A DNA stretch of 64,000 nt. Origin: an uncultured Gammaproteobacteria bacterium (lineage in GTDB: Bacteria > Patescibacteriota > Patescibacteriia > UBA9934). A program made the position numbers and the translations under genes. Below the pieces are notes generated by a model, which ran no database searches, was not told where the DNA came from, and saw nothing but the letters and a program-made list of their open reading frames with translations. Shown here piece after piece: positions 4,715 through 60,190 of the stretch. Numbering within the stretch: position 1 is the stretch's first letter; each line of letters begins with the position of its first letter. The stretch spans positions 8,895 through 72,894 of the forward strand of contig CAZTKG010000001.1 of NCBI GenBank assembly GCA_964613815.1, read 5' to 3'.

Positions 4715-6319
4715 ATGTTTAAGAGGTTCTTTAAAAAAGCTTCTTATTCGATTACGAGCGCGGCATTTATTGTCGCGTCGTTTTCGTTGATTTCGCGATT
4801 TTTTGGATTTATTCGGGATCGTATTTTGGCAGGGGAGTTTGGGGCTAGTGACAGTCTTGATATTTATTTCGCGGCGTTTCGGGCTCCCGATTTGCTTTTT
4901 CAGCTCGTTGTTGTTGGGGGGATTTCTGCGAGTTTTATCCCGATTTTTAACCGGCTTGTGGTTAAGAAGAAGGGAGCAGAGTGGGCGTTTGTGAATCGTG
5001 CGTTGCATTTGATTTTGTGTTTGTTTGGGGTACTTGCGATTGTTGCGGCGGTGTTTGCGTTTGAACTTGCTGGGCTTGTGGCTCCTGGGTTTGATGCGGC
5101 GAAGCAGATGCAGGTGGCGGAGTTGATGCGGGTGATGTTTGTGGCGCAGTTTTTGCTTGCGGCGTCGATGGTGTTTGGGTCAGTGCTTCAAGGGATGAAG
5201 CGGTTTATGGTGTATTCGGTGGCGCCGATTTTGTACAACATGGGGATTATATTTGGGATTTTGGTGTTTTATCCTCGGTTTGGATTGGTTGGTCTTGCTT
5301 GGGGGGTGGTGTTTGGCGCGGGGCTTCATTTGTTGATGCAGGCGTTTGGAGCTTGGAATTTGGGGTACCGGTGGCGTCCGTCTGTGAAGCTTGATAAGGA
5401 TGTGAAGTTGATGATGAAGCAGAGTGTGCCGCGGGTTTTGGGGCTTGTGGTGAATCAGGTGAATTTTTTGGCGATGACGATTATTGCGTCGCTTTTGGTG
5501 GCAGGGTCGGTGACGGTGGTGCAGTTTGCGTATAATTTGAACTTTTTTGCGATTGGGATTATTGCGGTGAGTTATGCAGTGGCGGCGTTTCCGGCGTTTT
5601 GTGAATATGTGAATAAGAAGGAGATGGGGAAGCTTCGAAGTGGAATTTCTAGTACGGTGCGACAGACGTTGTTTTTTATCGTGCCGGCGACGGCGTTGTT
5701 TTTGATATTGCGGGCGCAGATTGTGCGTATTGTGTTTGGGGCTGGAGAGTTTGATTGGATTTCGACGGTTTTGACGGCTAATACGCTTGGGATATTTGCG
5801 CTTAGTTTTTTCGCGCAGGCGCTTGTGTATATTTTTGTGCGGGCGTTTTTTGCCATGCATGACACATGGACGCCGTTTGTGGTTGGGCTCATTGCGGCTG
5901 GGGTGAATGTTGGGGTGGCGATGATGCTTGTGGGTGAATATGGCGTGCTTGGGCTTGCGATGGGATTTTCTGTAGCGGCGGTGGTGCAGATGGGATTGCT
6001 TTGGATATTGCTTCGGCGGAAGGCTGGGGAGCTTGATGGGTGGCGGATTGCCTGGTCGTTTTTGATTATGCTTGGAGCTGGTGGGGCGTGCGCGGTGGTT
6101 GCTCAGTATGTGAAGACGGCGTATGGGACGTATGTGGATTTGGATACGTTTGTGGCGGTGCTTGGGCAGTTTGGGGTTGCGGCGGCGCTTGGTGGGGTGA
6201 CGTATTTAGTTGTGGCTGGATTGTTGCGGAGTGAGGAGCTTGGGGTGTTTATGGCTGGGGTGCGGAAGAAATTGCTTAGAAAGGTGAAGCCGGAGGAGGC
6301 TGTGGTGGATTTGGCGTGA
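4715..6319 (+). CDS. murJ: lipid II flippase MurJ (MviN family)
   Basis: N-terminal SRFFGFIRDRILAGEFGASDSLDIYFAAFRAPDLLFQL is the conserved MurJ start. About 14 predicted TM segments over 534 aa. Confidence 0.8.
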   Translation: MFKRFFKKASYSITSAAFIVASFSLISRFFGFIRDRILAGEFGASDSLDIYFAAFRAPDLLFQLVVVGGISASFIPIFNRLVVKKKGAEWAFVNRALHLILCLFGVLAIVAAVFAFELAGLVAPGFDAAKQMQVAELMRVMFVAQFLLAASMVFGSVLQGMKRFMVYSVAPILYNMGIIFGILVFYPRFGLVGLAWGVVFGAGLHLLMQAFGAWNLGYRWRPSVKLDKDVKLMMKQSVPRVLGLVVNQVNFLAMTIIASLLVAGSVTVVQFAYNLNFFAIGIIAVSYAVAAFPAFCEYVNKKEMGKLRSGISSTVRQTLFFIVPATALFLILRAQIVRIVFGAGEFDWISTVLTANTLGIFALSFFAQALVYIFVRAFFAMHDTWTPFVVGLIAAGVNVGVAMMLVGEYGVLGLAMGFSVAAVVQMGLLWILLRRKAGELDGWRIAWSFLIMLGAGGACAVVAQYVKTAYGTYVDLDTFVAVLGQFGVAAALGGVTYLVVAGLLRSEELGVFMAGVRKKLLRKVKPEEAVVDLA

Positions 6320-6338
6320 TGGAGTTGTGAGGCTTCTT

Positions 6339-6450
6339 CCCATCCTGAGGAGGGGGGATTTCGCCCCCGACGGAAGGATCTCACGGCAGGGCTGTGCCGC
6401 GCGGAGAGGGATCCTTCCGTCCGTCGGCTACGCTCCCTCCTCAGGATGGG
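6339..6450. repeat. about 110 bp nested palindrome (CCCATCCTGAGGAGG...GACGGAAGGATC...GATCCTTCCGTC...CCTCCTCAGGATGGG), left copy
   Basis: The outer 15 bp arms are perfect inverted repeats and the inner 12 bp arms are also inverted repeats. It sits immediately after the murJ stop. Confidence 0.7.
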
Positions 6451-6508
6451 AGATTAGAAGATATACGCTTTTTATATGGGAGGTGATGGCGTTATTGGGG
6501 TTTATATT

Positions 6509-6775
6509 ATGAGCAACCGGCGGAATACGGTTGTTTATGTTGGGTGCACTCATGACTTGATTCGGCGAGTTTATGAGCATCGTTTAAAGGCGGTAGATGG
6601 GTTTACGAAGAAATATAATTTGACGAAATTGGTTTATTATAAGCCTTTTGGTTGTCATGATTATGCGCGGGAATGGGAAATTGAGTTGAAGAAGTGGCGG
6701 AGAGCGAAGAAGGATAAGTTGATAGAAGAGGAGAATCCGACTTGGAGGGATTTGTGGGATGAGATTGTTGAGTGA
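6509..6775 (+). CDS. GIY-YIG nuclease family protein
   Basis: MSNRRNTVVYVGCTHDLIRRVYEHR...YYKPF...EWEIELKKW: canonical GIY-YIG motif layout. An upstream in-frame ATG at 6476 is possible. Confidence 0.8.
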   Translation: MSNRRNTVVYVGCTHDLIRRVYEHRLKAVDGFTKKYNLTKLVYYKPFGCHDYAREWEIELKKWRRAKKDKLIEEENPTWRDLWDEIVE

Positions 6776-6794
6776 TGTGCGATGTCTTCTGTAG

Positions 6795-6906
6795 CCATCC
6801 TGAGGAGGGAGCATCAGCGATGGACGGAAGGATCTTGTGTTGTGGTGGTGCTGCGCGGGATGGGATCCTTCCGTTCGTCGGCTACGCTCTCCTCTGCTCA
6901 GGATGG
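6795..6906. repeat. about 110 bp nested palindrome, right copy (same orientation as the left copy)
   Basis: CCATCCTGAGGAGG...GACGGAAGGATC...GGATCCTTCCGT...GTCGGCTACGC...CTCAGGATGG. It shares the asymmetric GTCGGCTACGC segment with the left copy, so the two are direct repeats. Confidence 0.7.
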
Positions 6907-6949
6907 CTGCTAGGGTTTTGGATAAAAAATAAGCGCTCGAGATGAGTGC

Positions 6950-7561
6950 TTAGATGCGTGGCGGTGCCATGAGGTTCACTGCGGCGTGTTGTGGGATGCG
7001 GGTTCCGTCGATGATGATTCGTGCGCGTGGGTTGGCTTCACGGATGGAAGGGATGCATTTTGGGCAGACGGGGGTTTCTGATCTGGGGCCGTCGGTTTGG
7101 ATCAGGAATGCGGTGTTGATGGTGAGGATGTTGAAGCATTCTTCCATGACGCATTCTCCTCCGCTGGTTTTGATGAGGCGCGCGAATTCGATGATGGCGT
7201 CGATTGATGTTTGTCCCTGCAGTACCATGGGTCGCGCGGGTGGTGTCGGCTTTCCTGCGAATGCACTTCGTGCACTGAGCGGATTGTGTGGCTTGAGCGA
7301 GGAGACGCCTTCTACGTGGATCAGTCCGTCTCTGAGGATGAGTTGACCCCAGTGTGTTCGGCGGTTTCCGGGGAGGTGATCCAGAAGTCTTGGGTGGATG
7401 TATATTTGTCCGTCACGGTCAGTGATGCATGCGCCGGGTGCGATGAGTCCGCCGGTTGAAAAGTGGCGGACTGGGCCGATGATTGGTGATTTGCGACCTT
7501 CGAAAACTTCGCGGGTGAGGGGGTGAAGGAGCTGGGTGAGTGAAATGACGACTCTTGACAT
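6950..7561 (-). CDS. hypothetical protein (204 aa) with ECVMEE ... PVCPKC cysteine motifs
   Basis: Start at MSRVV with GGAGG 5 nt upstream on the - strand; the longer ORF 6950..7750 is rejected. Not confidently assignable; a faint deaminase-like C..E/PxCxxC pattern. Confidence 0.5.
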   Translation of the reverse strand: MSRVVISLTQLLHPLTREVFEGRKSPIIGPVRHFSTGGLIAPGACITDRDGQIYIHPRLLDHLPGNRRTHWGQLILRDGLIHVEGVSSLKPHNPLSARSAFAGKPTPPARPMVLQGQTSIDAIIEFARLIKTSGGECVMEECFNILTINTAFLIQTDGPRSETPVCPKCIPSIREANPRARIIIDGTRIPQHAAVNLMAPPRI

Positions 7562-7608
7562 GGATGCCTCCTGTGGCGTGGTGATTAGACTTGTTTTTGA
7601 TTTACTTG

Positions 7609-8115
7609 TCAATGATGATTTTCGTGGCGAGTGCTTTGGTCCCACCAATCGGTTGCGTAGGGATTTTTTGAGGTTGATTTTTGGATCATTTTTGTCATGT
7701 AGGGGATGATGTTTTTTTCGTTTGGGGTGAGCCAGGCCAGCTTTGAGCATTTATGTGGTTCTGCGTTTTTGATTTCGCCTGTGTACGTGTTGCATGAAAA
7801 GAGAAAATCTATTCTATGAAAGTCTTCAGCGTTTCTATCTGTAACTGATAGGAATGTGAGGTCGCTTTGTTTGATGGTGATATCGATTTCTTCTTTTGCT
7901 TCACGGATCATTCCTTGGATGATTGGTTCACCGTACTCAACATGTCCTGATGGTAGGCCGAATAATCCGTCCATGAATCCGGTGTTTTGACGTTTTAGGA
8001 AGAGGTATTTTCCGTCTTGTTCGAGAAGAAGGTAGACGGCAGCGACGAGTTGGTGTCGGTTTTTTGCATAGGGAATGTCGTTGCTTTTGCGGGTGTTTTC
8101 TAATACACTCTTCAT
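7609..8115 (-). CDS. NUDIX hydrolase
   Basis: Nudix box GHVEYGEPIIQGMIREAKEEIDI (GX5EX7REUXEEXGU). Start at MKSVLE; the ORF extension to 8358 overlaps alaS and is rejected. Confidence 0.75.
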   Translation of the reverse strand: MKSVLENTRKSNDIPYAKNRHQLVAAVYLLLEQDGKYLFLKRQNTGFMDGLFGLPSGHVEYGEPIIQGMIREAKEEIDITIKQSDLTFLSVTDRNAEDFHRIDFLFSCNTYTGEIKNAEPHKCSKLAWLTPNEKNIIPYMTKMIQKSTSKNPYATDWWDQSTRHENHH

Positions 8116-15925: not shown

Positions 15926-16032
15926 TTCCCATCTCGACCTTGTGGAGAGATCTGATTGTGATAAAACTGCGAGATCTCTCCGTAAGGTCCCCACTTTGCA
16001 GAATGCTTCGTTAGGGGCAGGCGAGATGGGAG
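15926..16032. repeat. RPE-like palindromic element, copy 1 (long form)
   Basis: TTCCCATCTCGACC..GGAGAGATCT..AGATCTCTCC..AAGGTCCCCACTTTGCAGAATGCTTCGTTAGGGG..GAGATGGGAG. It shares its long right arm with copy 6. Confidence 0.8.
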
Positions 16033-20074: not shown

Positions 20075-20158
20075 TTCCCATCTCGACCGAACGAAGTGAG
20101 TGGAGAGATCTGATTGTGGCAGAGCTGCGAGATCTCTCCGCGTTGGTCGAGATGGGAA
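20075..20158. repeat. RPE-like palindromic element, copy 2
   Basis: CCCATCTCGACC..GGAGAGATCT-(18 nt)-AGATCTCTCC..GGTCGAGATGGGAA. It fills the entire GT2/ligase intergenic region. Confidence 0.8.
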
Positions 20159-20166
20159 GTGGATAT

Positions 20167-21849
20167 ATGCTAGATCAATTTTTTGGAACATATACGTGGT
20201 GGACGGTTGGAGGCATTGTTGGGGTGTTTTTGTTGGCGCTTTTTGGGAAGATCGCGGGTTTGTCGGCGCTTGTTTTGATGTTGCTTGGAGTTTTGATTGC
20301 GTATGCTGCGTGGAATTCATTGGAAGTTGGGATGTTTGTCGCGTTTGTGGAGATGTTTGTTGGGGGGCATGGGCGATTGCTAGCTATGGAGGTGCTTGGG
20401 TTTTCGATGAGTTTGCGGATGGTGATTTTTGGCGTTGTGATGGGGGTGTTTTTGGTGCGGTTTTTGCAAGGTCGATTTAAGATCAATATTTTGCCTTGGC
20501 GGGACGGGCCTTGGATGCTTTTGATGGCTGCGGTGGTTTTGGGGGTTGTTGTGGGAGGGTTTGATCATGATGGAGGCGCGGTATTTGATGATGCGAATGG
20601 GTTTTTGGTTGTTGGCTACTTACTTCCTGTGATTGCAATTCGGTGGACGGCTGCATGGCGGCATCGGATGTTGCAGGCTTGTATGGGGGCGTATGTTTGG
20701 GTGACGGGTTTGACGCTTGGACTTGGATATTTGTTTACGCATTTACCAGGGAAGGCGCTTGATTTTGTATATAAGTTTGTGCGAGATGGGCGGATTGCGG
20801 AGGTGACGTTGCAGACGGTCGGGCATTTTGAAGGGGGGAGGTTTTATGAAGTTTTGATTGCTATGCTGGGGGATGGAGGGTATTGGTTTCGGGTGTTTTT
20901 GCCGAATCAGTTTACGATTTTGATTGGGATGTTTTTGCTTCTCGGTGCGGTGGTTTGGAGTAAGAAAGGGCAGTTGTCGGGACGTGTGATGCTGGTTGTT
21001 GGTGGTTTGATTGGGAGTGGGGCTGCGGCTCTTTTGCTTGGGGGATCGCGGAGTTTTTTGGTGGGAGTTTTGGCTGGTGGGGTTTGTTTGGTGGTTTTGA
21101 TGGTTCTTTCCCATCTCGACCGACCGCAGGGAGTGGAGAGATCTCTCCGCGTTGGTCGAGATGGGAGGATGGATGGTGTAATGAAGATTTTGATGATTGG
21201 TGTTGGGTCGTGTTTGGTTGCGTTCATGACGGCTTGGATTGTGGTGGAATTGCCGGTTCCTGCACGGCCTGATTTGAGTGATGCGTATTTTTACAGTACT
21301 TCTGCCGATGAGGGGCGGGCGAGTGCGGTGGCAAGTCGGTGGGATTTGCTTGATCCGATGATGGATGAGATTAAGGGCGCGCCGATGTTGGGATCTGGTT
21401 TTGGAGAAGAGATTACGTATCAGAGTAGCGATCCACGTGTGATTGCAGAGACTGGGGGCGGAGAGTGGACGACGTATCGGTTTGAGTGGGGGTATTTGGA
21501 TATTTGGTTGAAGATGGGAGTCTTGGGGGTGTTGGCGTTTGGGTGGTATTTGATGTCGATTTTTGTGGGCGTGCGACGGTTTGGTAGAGATCGAATATGG
21601 CTTGGGGTGGCTTTGATGTCGGCTGTTGTTGCGCTTTTTGGGACGCATATATTTTCGCCGTATTTGAATCACCCGATTGGGATTGGGTTTATGGTGTTTG
21701 TGTTGGTGTTTTTTGATGGTAGCGATGATGTCCGGCGAGGGAGGGTTGTTGATGAGGTTTTGGAAAAAATGGATTACGTTCGTGTTTCGGTTGGAGCCAC
21801 TTTTGGGCCGGCCGGACAAAAAGTGGTTCGGGAAGGTTTGGAAAAATAA
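20167..21849 (+). CDS. O-antigen ligase/polymerase-like (Wzy_C domain) membrane protein carrying an in-frame repeat-element insertion
   Basis: LLLGGSRSFLVGVLAGGV (the SR-containing helix) ... [element-encoded SHLDRPQGVERSLRVGRDGRMDG] ... MLGSGFGEEITY...EWGYLDIWLKMGVLGVL (GxGxG and ligase C-terminal motif). Start at MLDQFF; the 20116 start lies in repeat copy 2. Confidence 0.65.
   Translation: MLDQFFGTYTWWTVGGIVGVFLLALFGKIAGLSALVLMLLGVLIAYAAWNSLEVGMFVAFVEMFVGGHGRLLAMEVLGFSMSLRMVIFGVVMGVFLVRFLQGRFKINILPWRDGPWMLLMAAVVLGVVVGGFDHDGGAVFDDANGFLVVGYLLPVIAIRWTAAWRHRMLQACMGAYVWVTGLTLGLGYLFTHLPGKALDFVYKFVRDGRIAEVTLQTVGHFEGGRFYEVLIAMLGDGGYWFRVFLPNQFTILIGMFLLLGAVVWSKKGQLSGRVMLVVGGLIGSGAAALLLGGSRSFLVGVLAGGVCLVVLMVLSHLDRPQGVERSLRVGRDGRMDGVMKILMIGVGSCLVAFMTAWIVVELPVPARPDLSDAYFYSTSADEGRASAVASRWDLLDPMMDEIKGAPMLGSGFGEEITYQSSDPRVIAETGGGEWTTYRFEWGYLDIWLKMGVLGVLAFGWYLMSIFVGVRRFGRDRIWLGVALMSAVVALFGTHIFSPYLNHPIGIGFMVFVLVFFDGSDDVRRGRVVDEVLEKMDYVRVSVGATFGPAGQKVVREGLEK
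21107..21168. repeat. RPE-like palindromic element, copy 3 (short form, inside the ligase-like CDS)
   Basis: CCCATCTCGACC GACCGCAGGGAGT GGAGAGATCTCTCC GCGTT GGTCGAGATGGG: perfect 12 bp terminal inverted repeats and a central 14 bp palindrome. It is read through without a stop. Confidence 0.8.
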
Positions 21850-26134: not shown

Positions 26135-26620
26135 TTAGAGATAAGCTTCTTCGGGGATGTCGCCTTTTGTGATTTTTTTGGCTTTTTCGATGAAGAGGAT
26201 GCCGTCTAGGTGGTCGATTTCGTGTTGGAAGACGATGGAGAGGAGTTTGTCGGCTTTGATGCGGACGGGGTCACCGTTTCGATCTTTGGCTTTGATTTTG
26301 CAGGATTTGTGGCGTTCGACAATGCCCCAGACGCCTGGGATGGAGAGGCAGCCCTCTTGGAAGTCGATCTTCGTGTTTGAGGTGGAGATGATTTTGGGGT
26401 TGATGAAGGCTTGTGGGCCTTTTTTGGTTTCGGCGATGATGATGCGGACGTTTTCTCCGATTTGTGGAGCGGCGATACCGATGCCATTTTCTGCCGCCAT
26501 GGTTTCGATCATGTTGTCGATGAGGGTTTGGATTTTTTCTGACTGAATATCGGCATCAGGTACGGGGGCTGATGGGGTGTTAAGGGTTTTGTTTGGGTGG
26601 GTGAGGACGTTGAGTTTCAT
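26135..26620 (-). CDS. def: peptide deformylase
   Basis: GIGIAAPQIG, EGCLSIPG, HEIDHLDG: the three PDF motifs. Confidence 0.9.
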   Translation of the reverse strand: MKLNVLTHPNKTLNTPSAPVPDADIQSEKIQTLIDNMIETMAAENGIGIAAPQIGENVRIIIAETKKGPQAFINPKIISTSNTKIDFQEGCLSIPGVWGIVERHKSCKIKAKDRNGDPVRIKADKLLSIVFQHEIDHLDGILFIEKAKKITKGDIPEEAYL

Positions 26621-28379
26621 AGGTTGTTAGGGTGGTTTCGATGATGCAGGCGTCGGGGAGGGTTTTTAAGAGAGGGGTTATGGAAGGGGTTTGTAATGGA
26701 TGCGTTCTGATGGTGATTTTGTTGTCTTGTTGTTCTGTTTCTGCTTGAGGGGGGAGGGCGCCAATGAAGTCTGGAGGGACTTGATGGGTTTTTGGGGTGA
26801 TGGTGATTTCATCAAATGCAGGTGGGAGGTGGTAGTCGTTTGCGAGGTCGGTTTGGGATTTGATGAAGGATTCTGCGTTTAGGGTTGGGGTGACGATTTC
26901 TGGGATCCAGGTTTGGACGATGTGCGTTGCGTTTTGTTGTTTTGCGATGTAGTGGGAGCGGTAGAGTGTTCGTGCCATTCTTTGTGTTGCGTCTTGGTCA
27001 GCCATGGAAAGTTCTTGGTCGATGCTGATGTGGGCGATGAGGTTGAACGTTTGAGGAAAGAATGGTTTCCAGATTTGGTTGAAGAAGTATTCTGTGGCGA
27101 TGTTGATGTCGGCGTCTGGGTTGCCTGGATGCTGTTTGTCGATAATTTTGATGGAAGCTTTTGGAAACGCTTTTTGGATGATGGATTTGAGGCGGGCGTT
27201 TCCGATGCCTTTTTGTTTCCAGTCCATGGATCTGCAGTTTGGGCAGGAGGAGGCTTTTTGTGGAAGTTTGCAGAGGGTGCAGAATGGAGCGTTGTCTTGG
27301 TTTTTGAGGATCGATTGGCAGGTTTTGCAGCGGAGAATTTGTTTACAGGTGCCGCATTGGAAGCGTCTTGAAGTACCTTTTCGATTGAATGAAAGTAGCA
27401 CGGATTTAGGGGTTTGTAAAGCGTCAGTGATGGCATCGATGAGGCTAGAGGAGAGGAGTGGGAAGGGGGATTGCTGTTCTTCTGCTTTGAGGTCGATGAT
27501 GGTCAGGGTGGGGTGATTATCGAAAACGGATGCTTGGTAGGGAAGGGGGTCTGTTTGGAGGAGGGTGGCGTTATGCTGTTTGGTGAGAAGTTTTGCGGCG
27601 GTGCGGGCGTCGAATCTTGGGTTTCGTTTGGTGTTTTTGTGGGCTTCGTCGGAGGCGCATTCGATAATGACAAATGAAAGGTTGTGAGCTGGGAGAAGAG
27701 CGCCAACTTTTGTGGCGATGAGTGTTGTGCAAGTGCCAGTGCGCCAGGCTTTTTGGATGGTTTGACGGTGGGGTTTTGACGTTTTGCCGTGGATAGCGAG
27801 AGCGTTTGGGAATGAGAGGGATTTGGCGAGATTGTCGACATCTCTTCCTGTGGGAAGGAGGATGAGGGTTTGGTTTGGGGCGTTTTTGGCGAGGATGGAA
27901 AAAAGCGTCCAGGCGGTTTCTGGAGAAGATTGGATGGTGAGGGATTTGGTGGTTTTGATGGTTGGGAGGAGGGATTTGATGCGGTCGGCTGCGTGTTTTG
28001 AGATGGAGGTCTGGGGGTTTGTTGGATTTTCCCATCTCGACCTTGTGGAGAGATCTCTCGACTGCGCTCGAGATGGGGAAGAAGGGAATATGAAAAAGAG
28101 GAGACTTGGGACGGATTGGCCGATGGAAGTAGCAATAGATTCAAGGCGGGTGATGTCGGCTGAGGTTATTAGATTTTTGATCGCGATGCCGGAGATCGGT
28201 TTGGCGTTTGGAACTTCTGCGGTTTGGTTGATTTTGGCGACGATACCGGTTGTCTTGAAACCTCGGATGGTGATGTAGACGAGGTCGCCGATATTAGTGT
28301 TTACTCCTGCTGGAATTTGGTAATCAAAAACACCGAACCTCCTTGGCATTCGGCGGATTGGGTAGACCTGGGCAATCAT
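26580..28379 (-). CDS. priA: primosomal protein N' (PriA helicase) carrying an in-frame repeat-element insertion near residues 95-115
   Basis: N-terminal MIAQVYPIRRMPRRFGVFDYQIP...GDLVYITIRG. Cys4-Cys4 zinc fingers CGTCKQILRCKTCQS...CTLCK...CPNCRS. Helicase motifs are present. The element encodes FPSSPSRAQSRDLSTRSRWE. Confidence 0.85.
   Translation of the reverse strand: MIAQVYPIRRMPRRFGVFDYQIPAGVNTNIGDLVYITIRGFKTTGIVAKINQTAEVPNAKPISGIAIKNLITSADITRLESIATSIGQSVPSLLFFIFPSSPSRAQSRDLSTRSRWENPTNPQTSISKHAADRIKSLLPTIKTTKSLTIQSSPETAWTLFSILAKNAPNQTLILLPTGRDVDNLAKSLSFPNALAIHGKTSKPHRQTIQKAWRTGTCTTLIATKVGALLPAHNLSFVIIECASDEAHKNTKRNPRFDARTAAKLLTKQHNATLLQTDPLPYQASVFDNHPTLTIIDLKAEEQQSPFPLLSSSLIDAITDALQTPKSVLLSFNRKGTSRRFQCGTCKQILRCKTCQSILKNQDNAPFCTLCKLPQKASSCPNCRSMDWKQKGIGNARLKSIIQKAFPKASIKIIDKQHPGNPDADINIATEYFFNQIWKPFFPQTFNLIAHISIDQELSMADQDATQRMARTLYRSHYIAKQQNATHIVQTWIPEIVTPTLNAESFIKSQTDLANDYHLPPAFDEITITPKTHQVPPDFIGALPPQAETEQQDNKITIRTHPLQTPSITPLLKTLPDACIIETTLTTYETQRPHPPKQNP
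28029..28079. repeat. RPE-like palindromic element, copy 4 (short or truncated form, inside the priA CDS)
   Basis: TTCCCATCTCGACC TTGT GGAGAGATCTCTC GACTGCGC TCGAGATGGGG. Confidence 0.75.
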
Positions 28380-36897: not shown

Positions 36898-36972
36898 TTC
36901 CCATCTCGACCTTGTGGAGAGATCTCTGCGATGATCAAGAAGGAAGGATCTCTCCGCAAGGTTGAGATGGGA
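36898..36972. repeat. RPE-like palindromic element, copy 5
   Basis: TTCCCATCTCGACC TTGT GGAGAGATCTCT-(20 nt)-ATCTCTCC GCAAGG TTGAGATGGGAA. Confidence 0.8.
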
Positions 36973-60083: not shown

Positions 60084-60190
60084 TCCCATCTCGAGCATCG
60101 TTGAGAGATCTGATGGGGGCAGGGCTGCAAGATCTCTCCACAAGGTCCCCACTTTGCAGAATGCTTCGTTAGGGGTAGGCGAGATGGGAG
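60084..60190. repeat. RPE-like palindromic element, copy 6 (long form)
   Basis: TTCCCATCTCGAGC..GAGAGATCT-(18 nt)-AGATCTCTCC..AAGGTCCCCACTTTGCAGAATGCTTCGTTAGGGG..GAGATGGGAG. Confidence 0.8.

What the first reader, a model, noticed from the sequence alone, without database searches (positions are those of the whole stretch)
6339..6906. GIY-YIG nuclease gene bracketed by two direct copies of a roughly 110 bp nested-palindrome repeat
Left copy 6339..6450 and right copy 6795..6906. They share outer arms CCCATCCTGAGGAGG/CCTCCTCAGGATGGG and inner arms GACGGAAGGATC/GATCCTTCCGTC. They also share an asymmetric GTCGGCTACGC segment, so they are same-orientation direct repeats.

Between them lies a stand-alone 88-aa GIY-YIG protein (6509..6775). 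The unit sits between murJ and a convergent gene.

This looks like a compact mobile or homing cassette with structured ends: a GIY-YIG endonuclease paired with REP-like hairpins. Alternatively the hairpins are elaborate bidirectional terminators that the nuclease gene has invaded.
Basis: seen in the sequence. Interest (0 to 1): 0.65.

Follow-up and report, generated by a model that had tools for sequence, protein, structure and literature searches.

The report
Ssn-type nuclease gene with hairpin flanks
A tiny GIY-YIG nuclease gene sits between two copies of a long DNA hairpin, and this matches the recently described Ssn family of single-strand DNA nucleases whose genes are flanked by their own hairpin recognition repeats, so it is a new member of a known kind.

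Summary
Two direct ~112-nt copies (6339-6450 and 6794-6907, 82% identical) each fold into a very stable nested hairpin and bracket an intact 99-aa GIY-YIG gene. The gene runs 6476-6775, not from 6509.

The pairing is a family trait. In 49 of 61 homolog loci the two gene flanks resemble each other, against 6 of 121 control genes. The flanks carry 'GTC + stem-loop + C' units.

This architecture was published in 2025 (PMC11893778). Ssn nucleases are single-domain GIY-YIG enzymes that bind hairpin repeats (NTS/SRM) on single-stranded DNA only and nick just upstream. The published layout is NTS-ssnA-NTS.

Homologs 48-57% identical to the window protein are flanked by the exact Neisseria NTS. The window's hairpins are a variant with a CCC/GCC head instead of GTC, so the published SRM pattern misses them. 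They belong to a dispersed hairpin-doublet family with six further sites in the window, at least one of them in frame inside a gene.

Relatives have murJ...alaS without the cassette, but in this population it is fixed and invariant. Mobility is plausible: one relative has near-identical copies in three contexts. It is not shown for this copy.

Verdict: new member of a known kind.

The parts
4715..6319 (+). murJ (lipid II flippase), the upstream neighbour. Its stop codon lies 20 nt before the left hairpin.
   Evidence: Pfam PF03023, 4e-79. The block corA-PTAC-PKD-murJ is conserved in relatives.
6339..6450 (.). Left hairpin doublet: two inverted half-units around a central loop (6381-6409).
   Evidence: Inverted repeats I4 and I9. 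RNA fold -79.2 kcal/mol, z -6.7. DNA fold -39.9 kcal/mol, z -5.6.
6339..6380 (+). Left doublet, distal half-unit: CCC-ATCCT-[27 nt]-AGGAT-C. It carries its own GGGGGG..CCCCC insert.
   Evidence: Matches the unified pattern CCATCYYGA..GGARRGATC, which has 11 hits against 0 expected. Also found by the generalized scan.
6410..6450 (-). Left doublet, gene-proximal half-unit on the minus strand: CCCATCCTGAGGAGGGAGCGTAGCCGACGGACGGAAGGATC. This is the better conserved half.
   Evidence: It resembles the unit GTCATTGCGAGGAGCGTAGCGACGAAGCAATC that flanks a distant homolog (27 of 32 identical, z 3.6).
6476..6775 (+). ssn-like gene: a 99-aa single-domain GIY-YIG nuclease.
   Evidence: Pfam PF01541, 3e-10. 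The invariant family residues Y10, Y21, G23, R31, H35, E68 and N87 are all present. It is 48-57% identical to homologs flanked by the exact Neisseria NTS. The identical protein is found on 19 contigs.
6794..6907 (.). Right hairpin doublet, a direct copy of the left one (82% identical).
   Evidence: RNA fold -80.9 kcal/mol, z -9.4. DNA fold -35.1 kcal/mol, z -7.8.
6794..6834 (+). Right doublet, gene-proximal half-unit: GCC-ATCCT-[..]-AGGAT-C.
6864..6907 (-). Right doublet, distal half-unit on the minus strand: GCCATCCTGAGCAGAGGAGAGCGTAGCCGACGAACGGAAGGATC.
   Evidence: It is 30 of 32 identical to the L036-type unit (z 5.6).
6922..6951 (-). Small stem with a T-run just after the stop of the convergent 203-aa gene, probably that gene's own terminator.
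   Evidence: Read from the sequence: AAGCACTC-ATCTC-GAGCGCTT followed by ATTTTTT on the minus strand, with one mismatch in the stem. The consensus scan did not list it.
6950..7561 (-). Convergent 203-aa ORF of unknown function, the downstream neighbour.
   Evidence: Called as a 203-aa gene on public contigs. No Pfam, NCBIfam or PADLOC hit. Absent from relatives.
15928..16030 (.). Dispersed hairpin doublet of the related family (CCCATCTCGACC..GGAGAGATC / inverted partner), intergenic.
   Evidence: (MFE -56 kcal/mol).
20077..20156 (.). Dispersed hairpin doublet, lying between a glycosyltransferase-like ORF and a membrane-protein ORF.
   Evidence: (MFE -58 kcal/mol).
21110..21165 (.). Dispersed hairpin doublet inside the 577-aa ORF 20116-21849, read through in frame.
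   Evidence: (MFE -44 kcal/mol). Whether the ORF is a single gene was not confirmed; it has no Pfam hit.
28031..28077 (.). Dispersed hairpin doublet inside the PriA-like ORF (26580-28379, minus strand), in frame between the 3'BD and helicase domains.
   Evidence: Pfam places 3'BD at aa 16-89 and Helicase_C at aa 159-228 in the same ORF.
36900..36971 (.). Dispersed hairpin doublet, intergenic.
   Evidence: (MFE -61 kcal/mol).
60085..60188 (.). Dispersed hairpin doublet, intergenic. It shares the loop motif GGCAGGGCTG with the left ssn-flanking hairpin.

Best explanation
The gene at 6476-6775 encodes a member of the Ssn family. These are roughly 95-aa single-domain GIY-YIG enzymes that bind a specific hairpin repeat only when the DNA is single-stranded and nick a few nucleotides 5' of it.

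The two ~112-nt repeats are the nuclease's cognate hairpin elements. Each is a doublet of two inverted half-units of the form xCC-ATCCT-(loop)-AGGAT-C. The outermost half-units lie in the usual family orientation: plus strand upstream and minus strand downstream.

The repeats are diverged members of a hairpin-doublet family scattered through this genome (CCC-ATCTC-..-GAGAT-C).

Inferred, not shown:
- When DNA becomes single-stranded (replication, repair, DNA uptake), the protein recognises these hairpins and nicks beside them. That would influence recombination or integration of DNA carrying the repeats, as shown for Neisseria SsnA.
- The hairpin-gene-hairpin unit arrived in the variable murJ...alaS interval as a block and is now a fixed resident of this Uhrbacteria-like lineage.
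For: **Protein**
- PF01541 at 3e-10, 99 aa, single domain.
- Y10, Y21 and E68 have exactly the spacing of the residues proven essential in Neisseria SsnA, Y6, Y17 and E64.
- Homologs 48-57% identical to it (L011, L032, L049, L060, L077) are flanked by the exact published NTS, CGTCATTCCCGCGMAVGCGGGAATCYRG.

**Association between gene and hairpins**
- In 49 of 61 homolog loci the upstream and downstream flanks are significantly similar, against 6 of 121 control genes.
- 'GTC + 5-nt stem + loop + stem + C' units occur at 5.4 per kb in the flanks and 0.72 per kb elsewhere. They are present in 52 of 55 loci and on both sides in 41.
- GAATGAC/GTCATTC is enriched 20-fold in the flanks.

**Published match**
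- PMC11893778 describes the NTS-ssnA-NTS layout, ssDNA-only binding and cutting, dispersed repeats, and family-wide variation in specificity.

**Window**
- One pattern, CCATCYYGAN{3,32}GGARRGATC, hits the four flanking half-units and seven dispersed ones. None is expected by chance.
- The alignment shows shared ends, inner arms and loop motif.
- The stem pair changes in concert between the two subfamilies, ATCTC/GAGAT versus ATCCT/AGGAT.

**Insertion**
- Relatives have the same corA-PTAC-PKD-murJ...alaS block without the gene or the hairpins.
Against: - The published degenerate SRM pattern has no match anywhere in the window. The three bases before the stem are CCC/GCC rather than GTC, and those are the bases reported as most important for cleavage by the Neisseria enzyme.
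- Isolated half-units are not significantly stable as ssDNA (z about 0). Only the whole doublet is. The recognised structure in this genome is therefore uncertain.
- Three near-invariant family positions are changed in the window protein: E56K, R67W and K69I, the last two flanking the catalytic Glu. The enzyme could have altered specificity or weakened activity.
- Homology to Neisseria SsnA itself and assignment to cd10448 were not tested directly. The link is transitive.
- No biochemical data exist for this protein or for any Patescibacteria homolog.
Confidence: 0.72

Rival explanations
1. Active autonomous mobile element. The hairpin-ssn-hairpin unit is a transposon-like or homing cassette. 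The GIY-YIG nuclease cuts at the outer hairpin heads and so drives copying of itself and of the solo hairpins to new sites, analogous to RAYT/REPIN or IS200/IS605.
For: - Across the family the units are mostly oriented inward, like terminal inverted repeats: upstream + 80 versus - 36, downstream - 81 versus + 47.
- Some loci have near-identical long flanking repeats, for example L050 with 117 nt at about 98%.
- The identical protein P0045 lies in at least three contexts. The shared DNA is limited to the gene plus inverted TTCTGTCAYYCTGAG units, and homology breaks a few nt outside the GTC heads, which is where SsnA is reported to cut.
- The cassette is absent from relatives' murJ...alaS interval.
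- The nearest protein homologs come from unrelated phyla.
- Hairpins are found in frame inside genes.
Against: - This copy has a single context in all 19 plus 14 contigs and is 100% identical across samples.
- Its two repeats are only 82% alike, so they are old.
- There is only one ssn gene in the 64 kb.
- Four of five multi-contig family members checked have a single context.
- No strand-transfer or ligation activity is known for GIY-YIG enzymes.
- The authors of the Ssn paper raise mobility only as a hypothesis.
Confidence: 0.18
2. The hairpins are transcription terminators or mRNA-stabilising stem-loops for murJ, ssn and the convergent gene, and the nuclease gene simply landed between them.
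For: - The position is right: the left hairpin starts 20 nt after the murJ stop, and the right hairpin starts 19 nt after the ssn stop with TTTT 8 nt beyond it.
- The stems are very stable as RNA.
Against: - The terminator scan finds nothing at either hairpin.
- There is no T-run directly after the stems.
- The convergent gene has its own small terminator-like stem at 6922-6951.
- The same bracketing recurs around homologs in many phyla with family-specific motifs.
- At least one related hairpin lies inside a coding sequence.
Confidence: 0.06
3. The hairpins act as structured RNA: a cis-regulatory element or small RNA controlling the nuclease gene.
For: - Strong predicted RNA folds.
- The units lie in the untranslated regions of ssn.
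Against: - No Rfam family matches. The only hits are noise well below the gathering scores.
- Both strands fold about equally, as a DNA palindrome would.
- The characterised SsnA does not bind RNA.
- Copies occur in both orientations and inside ORFs.
Confidence: 0.03

Closest known systems
Ssn family of site-specific single-stranded DNA nucleases with NTS/SRM hairpin repeats (Chenal et al., Nat Commun 2025, PMC11893778)
   Same: - Single-domain GIY-YIG protein of about 95-100 aa with the same catalytic Tyr/Tyr/Glu spacing.
- The gene is bracketed on both sides by hairpin-forming repeats.
- Related repeats are dispersed through the genome.
- Close homologs carry the exact NTS.
- The hairpins form inverted doublets.
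   Different: - The head trinucleotide is CCC/GCC, not GTC, and the published SRM search pattern does not match.
- The units have long loops (27-31 nt), and the stable structure is the ~112-nt doublet.
- The two doublets are direct copies of each other.
- The host is a Patescibacteria (Uhrbacteria-like) genome.
- Activity is untested.
REP/REPIN elements with RAYT (Y1/HUH) transposases, and IS200/IS605
   Same: - A small single gene is flanked by hairpin repeats that are also dispersed as inverted doublets.
- The enzymes act on hairpins in single-stranded DNA.
   Different: - The enzyme here has the GIY-YIG fold, not a HUH/Y1 transposase.
- No strand-transfer chemistry is known for it.
- Mobility has not been demonstrated.
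Neisseria dRS3/NIME repeats and Rickettsia palindromic elements (RPE)
   Same: - Dispersed palindromic repeats cluster around genes.
- RPEs, like at least one of the window's hairpins, sit in frame inside protein-coding genes (stated from general knowledge of RPEs).
   Different: - The sequences are unrelated: the window half-units against the NTS give z about 0.
- The in-frame status was only partly checked here.
GIY-YIG homing endonucleases (I-TevI, SegA-type)
   Same: - The GIY-YIG catalytic domain.
- A free-standing small gene in an intergenic position that is absent from relatives.
   Different: - Those enzymes are over 200 aa with a separate DNA-binding domain. They cut double-stranded DNA at long asymmetric sites and are typical of phages and introns.
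- This protein is 99 aa with no extra domain. The NCBIfam group I intron endonuclease model scores only 16.7 bits against a cut-off of 56.
UPF0213 / YhbQ-type small GIY-YIG proteins (PDB 1zg2, 1ywl)
   Same: - Similar size.
- Single GIY-YIG domain.
   Different: Only a weak profile match (1.7e-7 and 8e-4), so this is a different subfamily. I know of no hairpin association for it.

Membership tests
Ssn nuclease / SRM module | Single-domain GIY-YIG protein of about 94-100 aa | tested here: met
   99 aa. PF01541 covers residues 2-68 of the 88-aa reading, and no other domain is present. It aligns end to end with 93-102-aa homologs.
Ssn nuclease / SRM module | Catalytic residues equivalent to SsnA Y6, Y17 and E64 | tested here: met
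   Y10, Y21 and E68 have identical spacing and are invariant in alignment A2, together with G23, R31, H35 and N87.
Ssn nuclease / SRM module | Sequence homology to N. meningitidis SsnA (E < 1e-10), or assignment to CDD cd10448 | not testable with these tools
   Neither the SsnA sequence nor CDD was available. Indirect support: the protein is 48-57% identical to homologs flanked by the exact NTS.
Ssn nuclease / SRM module | Flanked by repeats matching the published SRM pattern HGTCWYN(0-2)YYVSBRHN(0-5)WNVSBRGN(0-2)RNCYNB | tested here: not met
   There are 0 matches in the whole window. Among homolog loci, only 14 of 55 have a match in their flanks.
Ssn nuclease / SRM module | Gene bracketed on both sides by hairpin-forming inverted repeats of SRM layout (3-nt head, stem, loop, stem, C) | tested here: inconclusive
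   The layout is present four times, with a CCC/GCC head and the conserved trailing C, and the whole doublets are very stable. The isolated half-unit stems are not significantly stable (z about 0).
Ssn nuclease / SRM module | Related repeats dispersed in the same genome | tested here: met
   Six further doublets lie in the 64 kb. The unified pattern gives 11 hits against 0 expected.
Ssn nuclease / SRM module | Binds and cuts next to the hairpin on ssDNA only | not testable with these tools
   This needs biochemistry.
REP/RAYT or IS200/IS605 | Y1 (HUH) transposase encoded between the hairpins | tested here: not met
   The only ORF between the hairpins is a GIY-YIG protein.
GIY-YIG homing endonuclease | Catalytic domain joined to a DNA-binding domain, and a match to the intron-endonuclease model | tested here: not met
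   99 aa with a single domain. TIGR01453 scores 16.7 bits against a cut-off of 56.
Intrinsic terminator | G+C-rich stem directly followed by a T-run | tested here: not met
   The scan lists no terminator-like site at 6339-6450 or 6794-6907.
Known structured RNA (Rfam) | Match at or above a family's gathering score | tested here: not met
   No match at gathering scores. In E-value mode there are only 20-bit noise hits.

The most novel reading that the evidence does not exclude
Hairpin-ssn-hairpin cassettes may be a true class of prokaryotic mobile element in which a roughly 95-aa GIY-YIG single-strand nuclease plays the role that Y1 transposases play for REPINs and IS200/IS605. On this reading the nuclease cuts just outside the two inward-facing hairpin heads, and the unit and its solo hairpins spread, including in frame into genes. 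The window's copy would then be an old, now immobile insertion whose specificity has drifted from GTC to CCC together with the genome's whole hairpin family.
Probability: 0.3. Interest if true: 0.75.

Novelty: new member of a known kind. Interest (0 to 1): 0.35.

Why it matters
The case extends the recently described Ssn nuclease/hairpin pairing to a reduced Patescibacteria genome. It also shows a variant recognition element that the published search pattern misses: the GTC head is replaced by CCC, the loops are long, and the units are organised as ~112-nt doublets. That is useful in two ways.

- **Surveys.** The published motif detects only about a quarter of the flanking repeats in this branch of the family. 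A structural definition catches nearly all of them.
- **Biotechnology.** The family is being developed as a source of site-specific ssDNA cutters, and this pair offers a candidate new specificity.

The side evidence touches the open question of whether these cassettes are mobile. One relative has near-identical copies in several contexts, bounded just outside the hairpin heads, and here hairpins lie in frame inside genes.

For this window, though, the feature is an instance of something already described.

Tried and rejected
- **Exact-arm searches in the window.** They found only the two copies. This first suggested that the hairpin was unique to the nuclease gene. A looser structural scan later showed a related dispersed family.
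- **Scan of GTDB representative genomes with the inner palindrome.** The only hit was an unrelated terminator in a Saprospiraceae contig, L008.
- **Rfam.** Nothing at gathering scores or in E-value mode.
- **Literature.** Searches for GIY-YIG with REP, REPIN or COG2827 found nothing relevant. Searching for the DNA motif itself found the Ssn paper.
- **Empty-site polymorphism.** All 14 contigs with the identical MurJ and all 19 with the identical nuclease carry the cassette, and it is 100% identical in the seven loci compared. The nearest other MurJ is only 60% identical, so only coarse synteny could be compared.
- **Integron attC cassette.** Rejected by eye: there are no GTTRRRY/RYYYAAC core sites at the hairpin ends.
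- **First Python run of the flank statistics.** It timed out and was redone with simple shuffles.
- **PADLOC.** It gave no defence-system assignment for the nuclease. The only hit was a 14.8-bit match to UzuA.
Full report
**1. Checking the observation**

The region reads as described. The repeat finder reports a 67-nt direct family (6369-6435 and 6823-6889) plus the outer and inner inverted arms. A pairwise alignment of 6325-6465 with 6780-6920 gives 82% identity in the same orientation.

The two arm sequences each occur 5 times in the window, counting both strands and near matches. Only 0.2-0.4 are expected, and no shuffle reached 5.

Each copy folds into a long nested hairpin. As RNA the energies are -79.2 and -80.9 kcal/mol (z -6.7 and -9.4). 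As DNA they are -39.9 and -35.1 kcal/mol (z -5.6 and -7.8).

One correction is needed: the ORF starts at 6476 and encodes 99 aa. The 6509 start would delete the strand carrying the GIY tyrosine, Y10, which is invariant in the family. Gene callers on public contigs also aa. Pfam gives GIY-YIG at 3e-10 and MurJ at 4e-79 for the upstream gene.

**2. Is the pairing of gene and hairpins more than a local accident?**

The identical protein is on 19 contigs, all in the same context. The nearest other homologs are only about 60% identical and come from unrelated phyla: WOR-3, Rhodanobacteraceae, Caldithrix, Thermodesulfovibrio and Paceibacterota.

The first three homolog loci I fetched were all bracketed by hairpin repeats of different sequence. 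I then collected 80 metagenome loci with homologs and measured the similarity between the 220 nt upstream and downstream of each gene.
- 49 of 61 usable loci exceed z = 4, in direct or inverted orientation.
- Only 6 of 121 other genes in the same sequences do so.
- The flanks are enriched for GTCATTC/GAATGAC (20-fold), and TGTCATT occurs in the flanks of 52 of 83 loci.
- A structural scan for 'GTC + 5-nt stem + loop of 3-45 + complementary stem + C' finds 5.4 units per kb in the flanks against 0.72 per kb elsewhere. It hits 52 of 55 loci, and both sides in 41. Control trinucleotide heads show no enrichment.
- Upstream units are mostly on the gene strand (80 versus 36) and downstream units mostly on the opposite strand (81 versus 47). 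The heads therefore face outward, like terminal inverted repeats.

**3. What is known**

Searching papers for the motif strings led to Chenal et al., Nat Commun 2025 (PMC11893778). The paper reports the following.
- The Neisseria repeat NTS, CGTCATTCCCGCGMAVGCGGGAATCYRG, flanks a 94-aa single-domain GIY-YIG gene, ssnA.
- SsnA binds the NTS only as single-stranded DNA and cuts a few nucleotides upstream. It does not act on dsDNA or RNA.
- Y6, Y17 and E64 are essential.
- The three bases before the palindrome matter most for cutting, and the C after it matters most for binding.
- Thousands of homologs (roughly CDD cd10448) are flanked by their own 'Ssn-related motifs' (SRM). 71% have at least one SRM nearby and 42% have them on both sides.
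- The NTS-ssnA-NTS layout resembles an insertion sequence and the REP/RAYT system, but the authors raise mobility only as a hypothesis.

I found no later paper on the family.

**4. Does the window's gene belong to that family?**

In favour:
- The size and single domain fit.
- Y10, Y21 and E68 have the exact spacing of SsnA's Y6, Y17 and E64.
- All invariant family residues are present.
- Homologs 48-57% identical to the window protein are flanked by the exact NTS. In L011, L049 and L060 it lies in the flank; L032 has it 14 nt before the start codon and 1 nt after the stop; in L077 the exact match overlaps the called ORF, with a near-NTS (up to 2 substitutions) 14 nt upstream.

Against or open:
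- The published SRM pattern has no match in the window.
- I could not compare directly with SsnA or cd10448.
- Three near-invariant positions are changed: E56K, R67W and K69I.
- The family is distinct from UPF0213/YhbQ, with only weak profile matches to 1zg2 and 1ywl.
- It is not an intron-type homing endonuclease.

**5. Anatomy of the window's hairpins**

Each ~112-nt repeat is a doublet of two inverted half-units, each of the form xCC-ATCCT-(27-31 nt)-AGGAT-C.
- Left doublet: 6339-6380 on the plus strand and 6410-6450 on the minus strand.
- Right doublet: 6794-6834 on the plus strand and 6864-6907 on the minus strand.

The minus-strand halves are the better conserved. They resemble the units flanking distant homologs, for example GTCATTGCGAGGAGCGTAGCGACGAAGCAATC in L036 (27-30 of 32 identical, z 3.6-5.6). 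They do not resemble the Neisseria NTS (z about 0).

The head is CCC or GCC instead of GTC, and the trailing C is kept.

There is a caveat. As isolated ssDNA the half-units are not significantly stable (z about 0); only the doublet is. Which structure the protein would see is therefore open.

**6. A dispersed related family**

The looser scan revealed six more hairpin doublets in the window:
- 15928-16030
- 20077-20156
- 21110-21165
- 28031-28077
- 36900-36971
- 60085-60188

They are built from CCC-ATCTC-GACC..GGA-GAGAT-C units, with MFE between -28 and -61 kcal/mol.

The alignment shows shared ends (TTCCCATC..GA and ..GATGGGA), shared inner arms (GGA[GA][AG]GATCT) and even a shared loop motif, GGCAGGGCTG. 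One pattern, CCATCYYGAN{3,32}GGARRGATC, hits 11 half-units of both kinds with none expected by chance.

Between the two subfamilies the stem changes in concert, ATCTC/GAGAT against ATCCT/AGGAT. This is one compensatory event. It is compatible with selection on the half-unit stem or on a recognition sequence that occurs twice per unit.

One doublet lies inside the PriA-like ORF, in frame between its 3'BD and helicase domains. Another is read through in frame inside a 577-aa membrane ORF. This picture, a nuclease gene flanked by diverged members of a dispersed hairpin family, is what the Ssn/SRM model predicts.

**7. Insertion and mobility**

The nearest MurJ orthologs are 57-60% identical and come from Uhrbacteria and other Patescibacteria. 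They sit in the same corA-PTAC-PKD-murJ...alaS block.
- In one relative, alaS follows murJ after 43 nt.
- In two others, unrelated small genes fill the gap.
- None has the nuclease or these hairpins.

The cassette, like the 203-aa and NUDIX genes beside it, is therefore lineage-specific content in a variable interval.

Within the population it is fixed. Every contig carrying the identical MurJ also has the cassette, and its sequence is 100% identical in seven loci from different samples.

Across the family, four of the five proteins seen on several contigs have a single context. The fifth, P0045, lies in at least three contexts.
- The contexts are HisK-ssn-CdhD, TPR-ssn-OEP, and ssn-PeriplaBP-HisK.
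- Two of these contexts overlap the same histidine-kinase gene. That places two copies about 4.5 kb apart, inferred by joining contigs from different samples.
- The copies are 96-99% identical over the gene and its immediate flanks only.
- They are bounded by inverted TTCTGTCAYYCTGAG units, and homology ends a few nucleotides outside the GTC heads.

That boundary is where SsnA is reported to cut. It is suggestive evidence that the cassettes can be copied as units, but it is not evidence that this copy moves or that the nuclease catalyses the movement.

**8. Verdict**

The best explanation is an Ssn-type single-strand nuclease together with its cognate hairpin repeats. The recognition element is a variant, and the host is Patescibacteria. 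'Mobile' is plausible for the family but unproven here. 'Homing' and 'invaded terminators' are not supported.

Because the architecture was described in 2025, I rate this a new member of a known kind, of moderate interest.

Noticed in passing
window 15928-16030, 20077-20156, 21110-21165, 28031-28077, 36900-36971, 60085-60188: A dispersed family of 50-105-nt hairpin doublets (CCCATCTCGACC..GGAGAGATC plus an inverted partner), about one per 10 kb. It is related to the ssn-flanking hairpins.
   Followed up: yes
window 28031-28077 (in ORF 26580-28379, minus strand) and 21110-21165 (in ORF 20116-21849, plus strand): Two of the hairpin doublets are read through in frame inside long ORFs. One lies between the 3'BD and helicase domains of a PriA-like protein, which recalls Rickettsia palindromic elements. 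No comparison with orthologs lacking the insert was made.
   Followed up: partly
window 6950-8115; loci L093, L094: The interval between murJ and alaS is a variable spot. Here it also holds an orphan 203-aa gene and a NUDIX gene (PADLOC PDC-S07, 3e-12). Relatives have other small genes there, or none.
   Followed up: partly
L094 about 6179-6265: A relative carries a different long perfect hairpin (CGCGCACGTTGTCCTAAATTCG...CGAATTTAGGACAATGTGCCGCG) in an 855-nt gap after murJ. No nuclease gene is detectable there.
   Followed up: no
L104, L105, L106, L107, L108, L110, L111: The identical Ssn protein P0045 lies in at least three genomic contexts, embedded in arrays of many short repeat units. Two copies appear to bracket a Peripla_BP-histidine kinase operon about 4.5 kb apart, inferred by joining contigs from different samples.
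   Followed up: partly
L013-L092 (homolog loci): The published SRM search pattern finds a flanking unit in only 14 of 55 loci of this branch of the family. A simple structural definition (GTC + 5-nt stem + loop + stem + C) finds one in 52 of 55.
   Followed up: yes
L089 93-407 and from 1835: Two GIY-YIG homolog genes lie within one 1.9-kb contig. The second runs off the end of the contig.
   Followed up: no
L050 (-159..-43 upstream and +1..+117 downstream of the gene): 117-nt direct repeats, about 98% identical, abut the stop codon and lie 43 nt before the start of a homolog. They look like a very recent duplication of the flanking hairpin block.
   Followed up: no
window 6476-6775: The window protein keeps all catalytic residues but changes three near-invariant family positions: E56K, R67W and K69I, the last two next to the catalytic Glu. 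This coincides with the change of the hairpin head from GTC to CCC/GCC, so specificity may have co-evolved.
   Followed up: no
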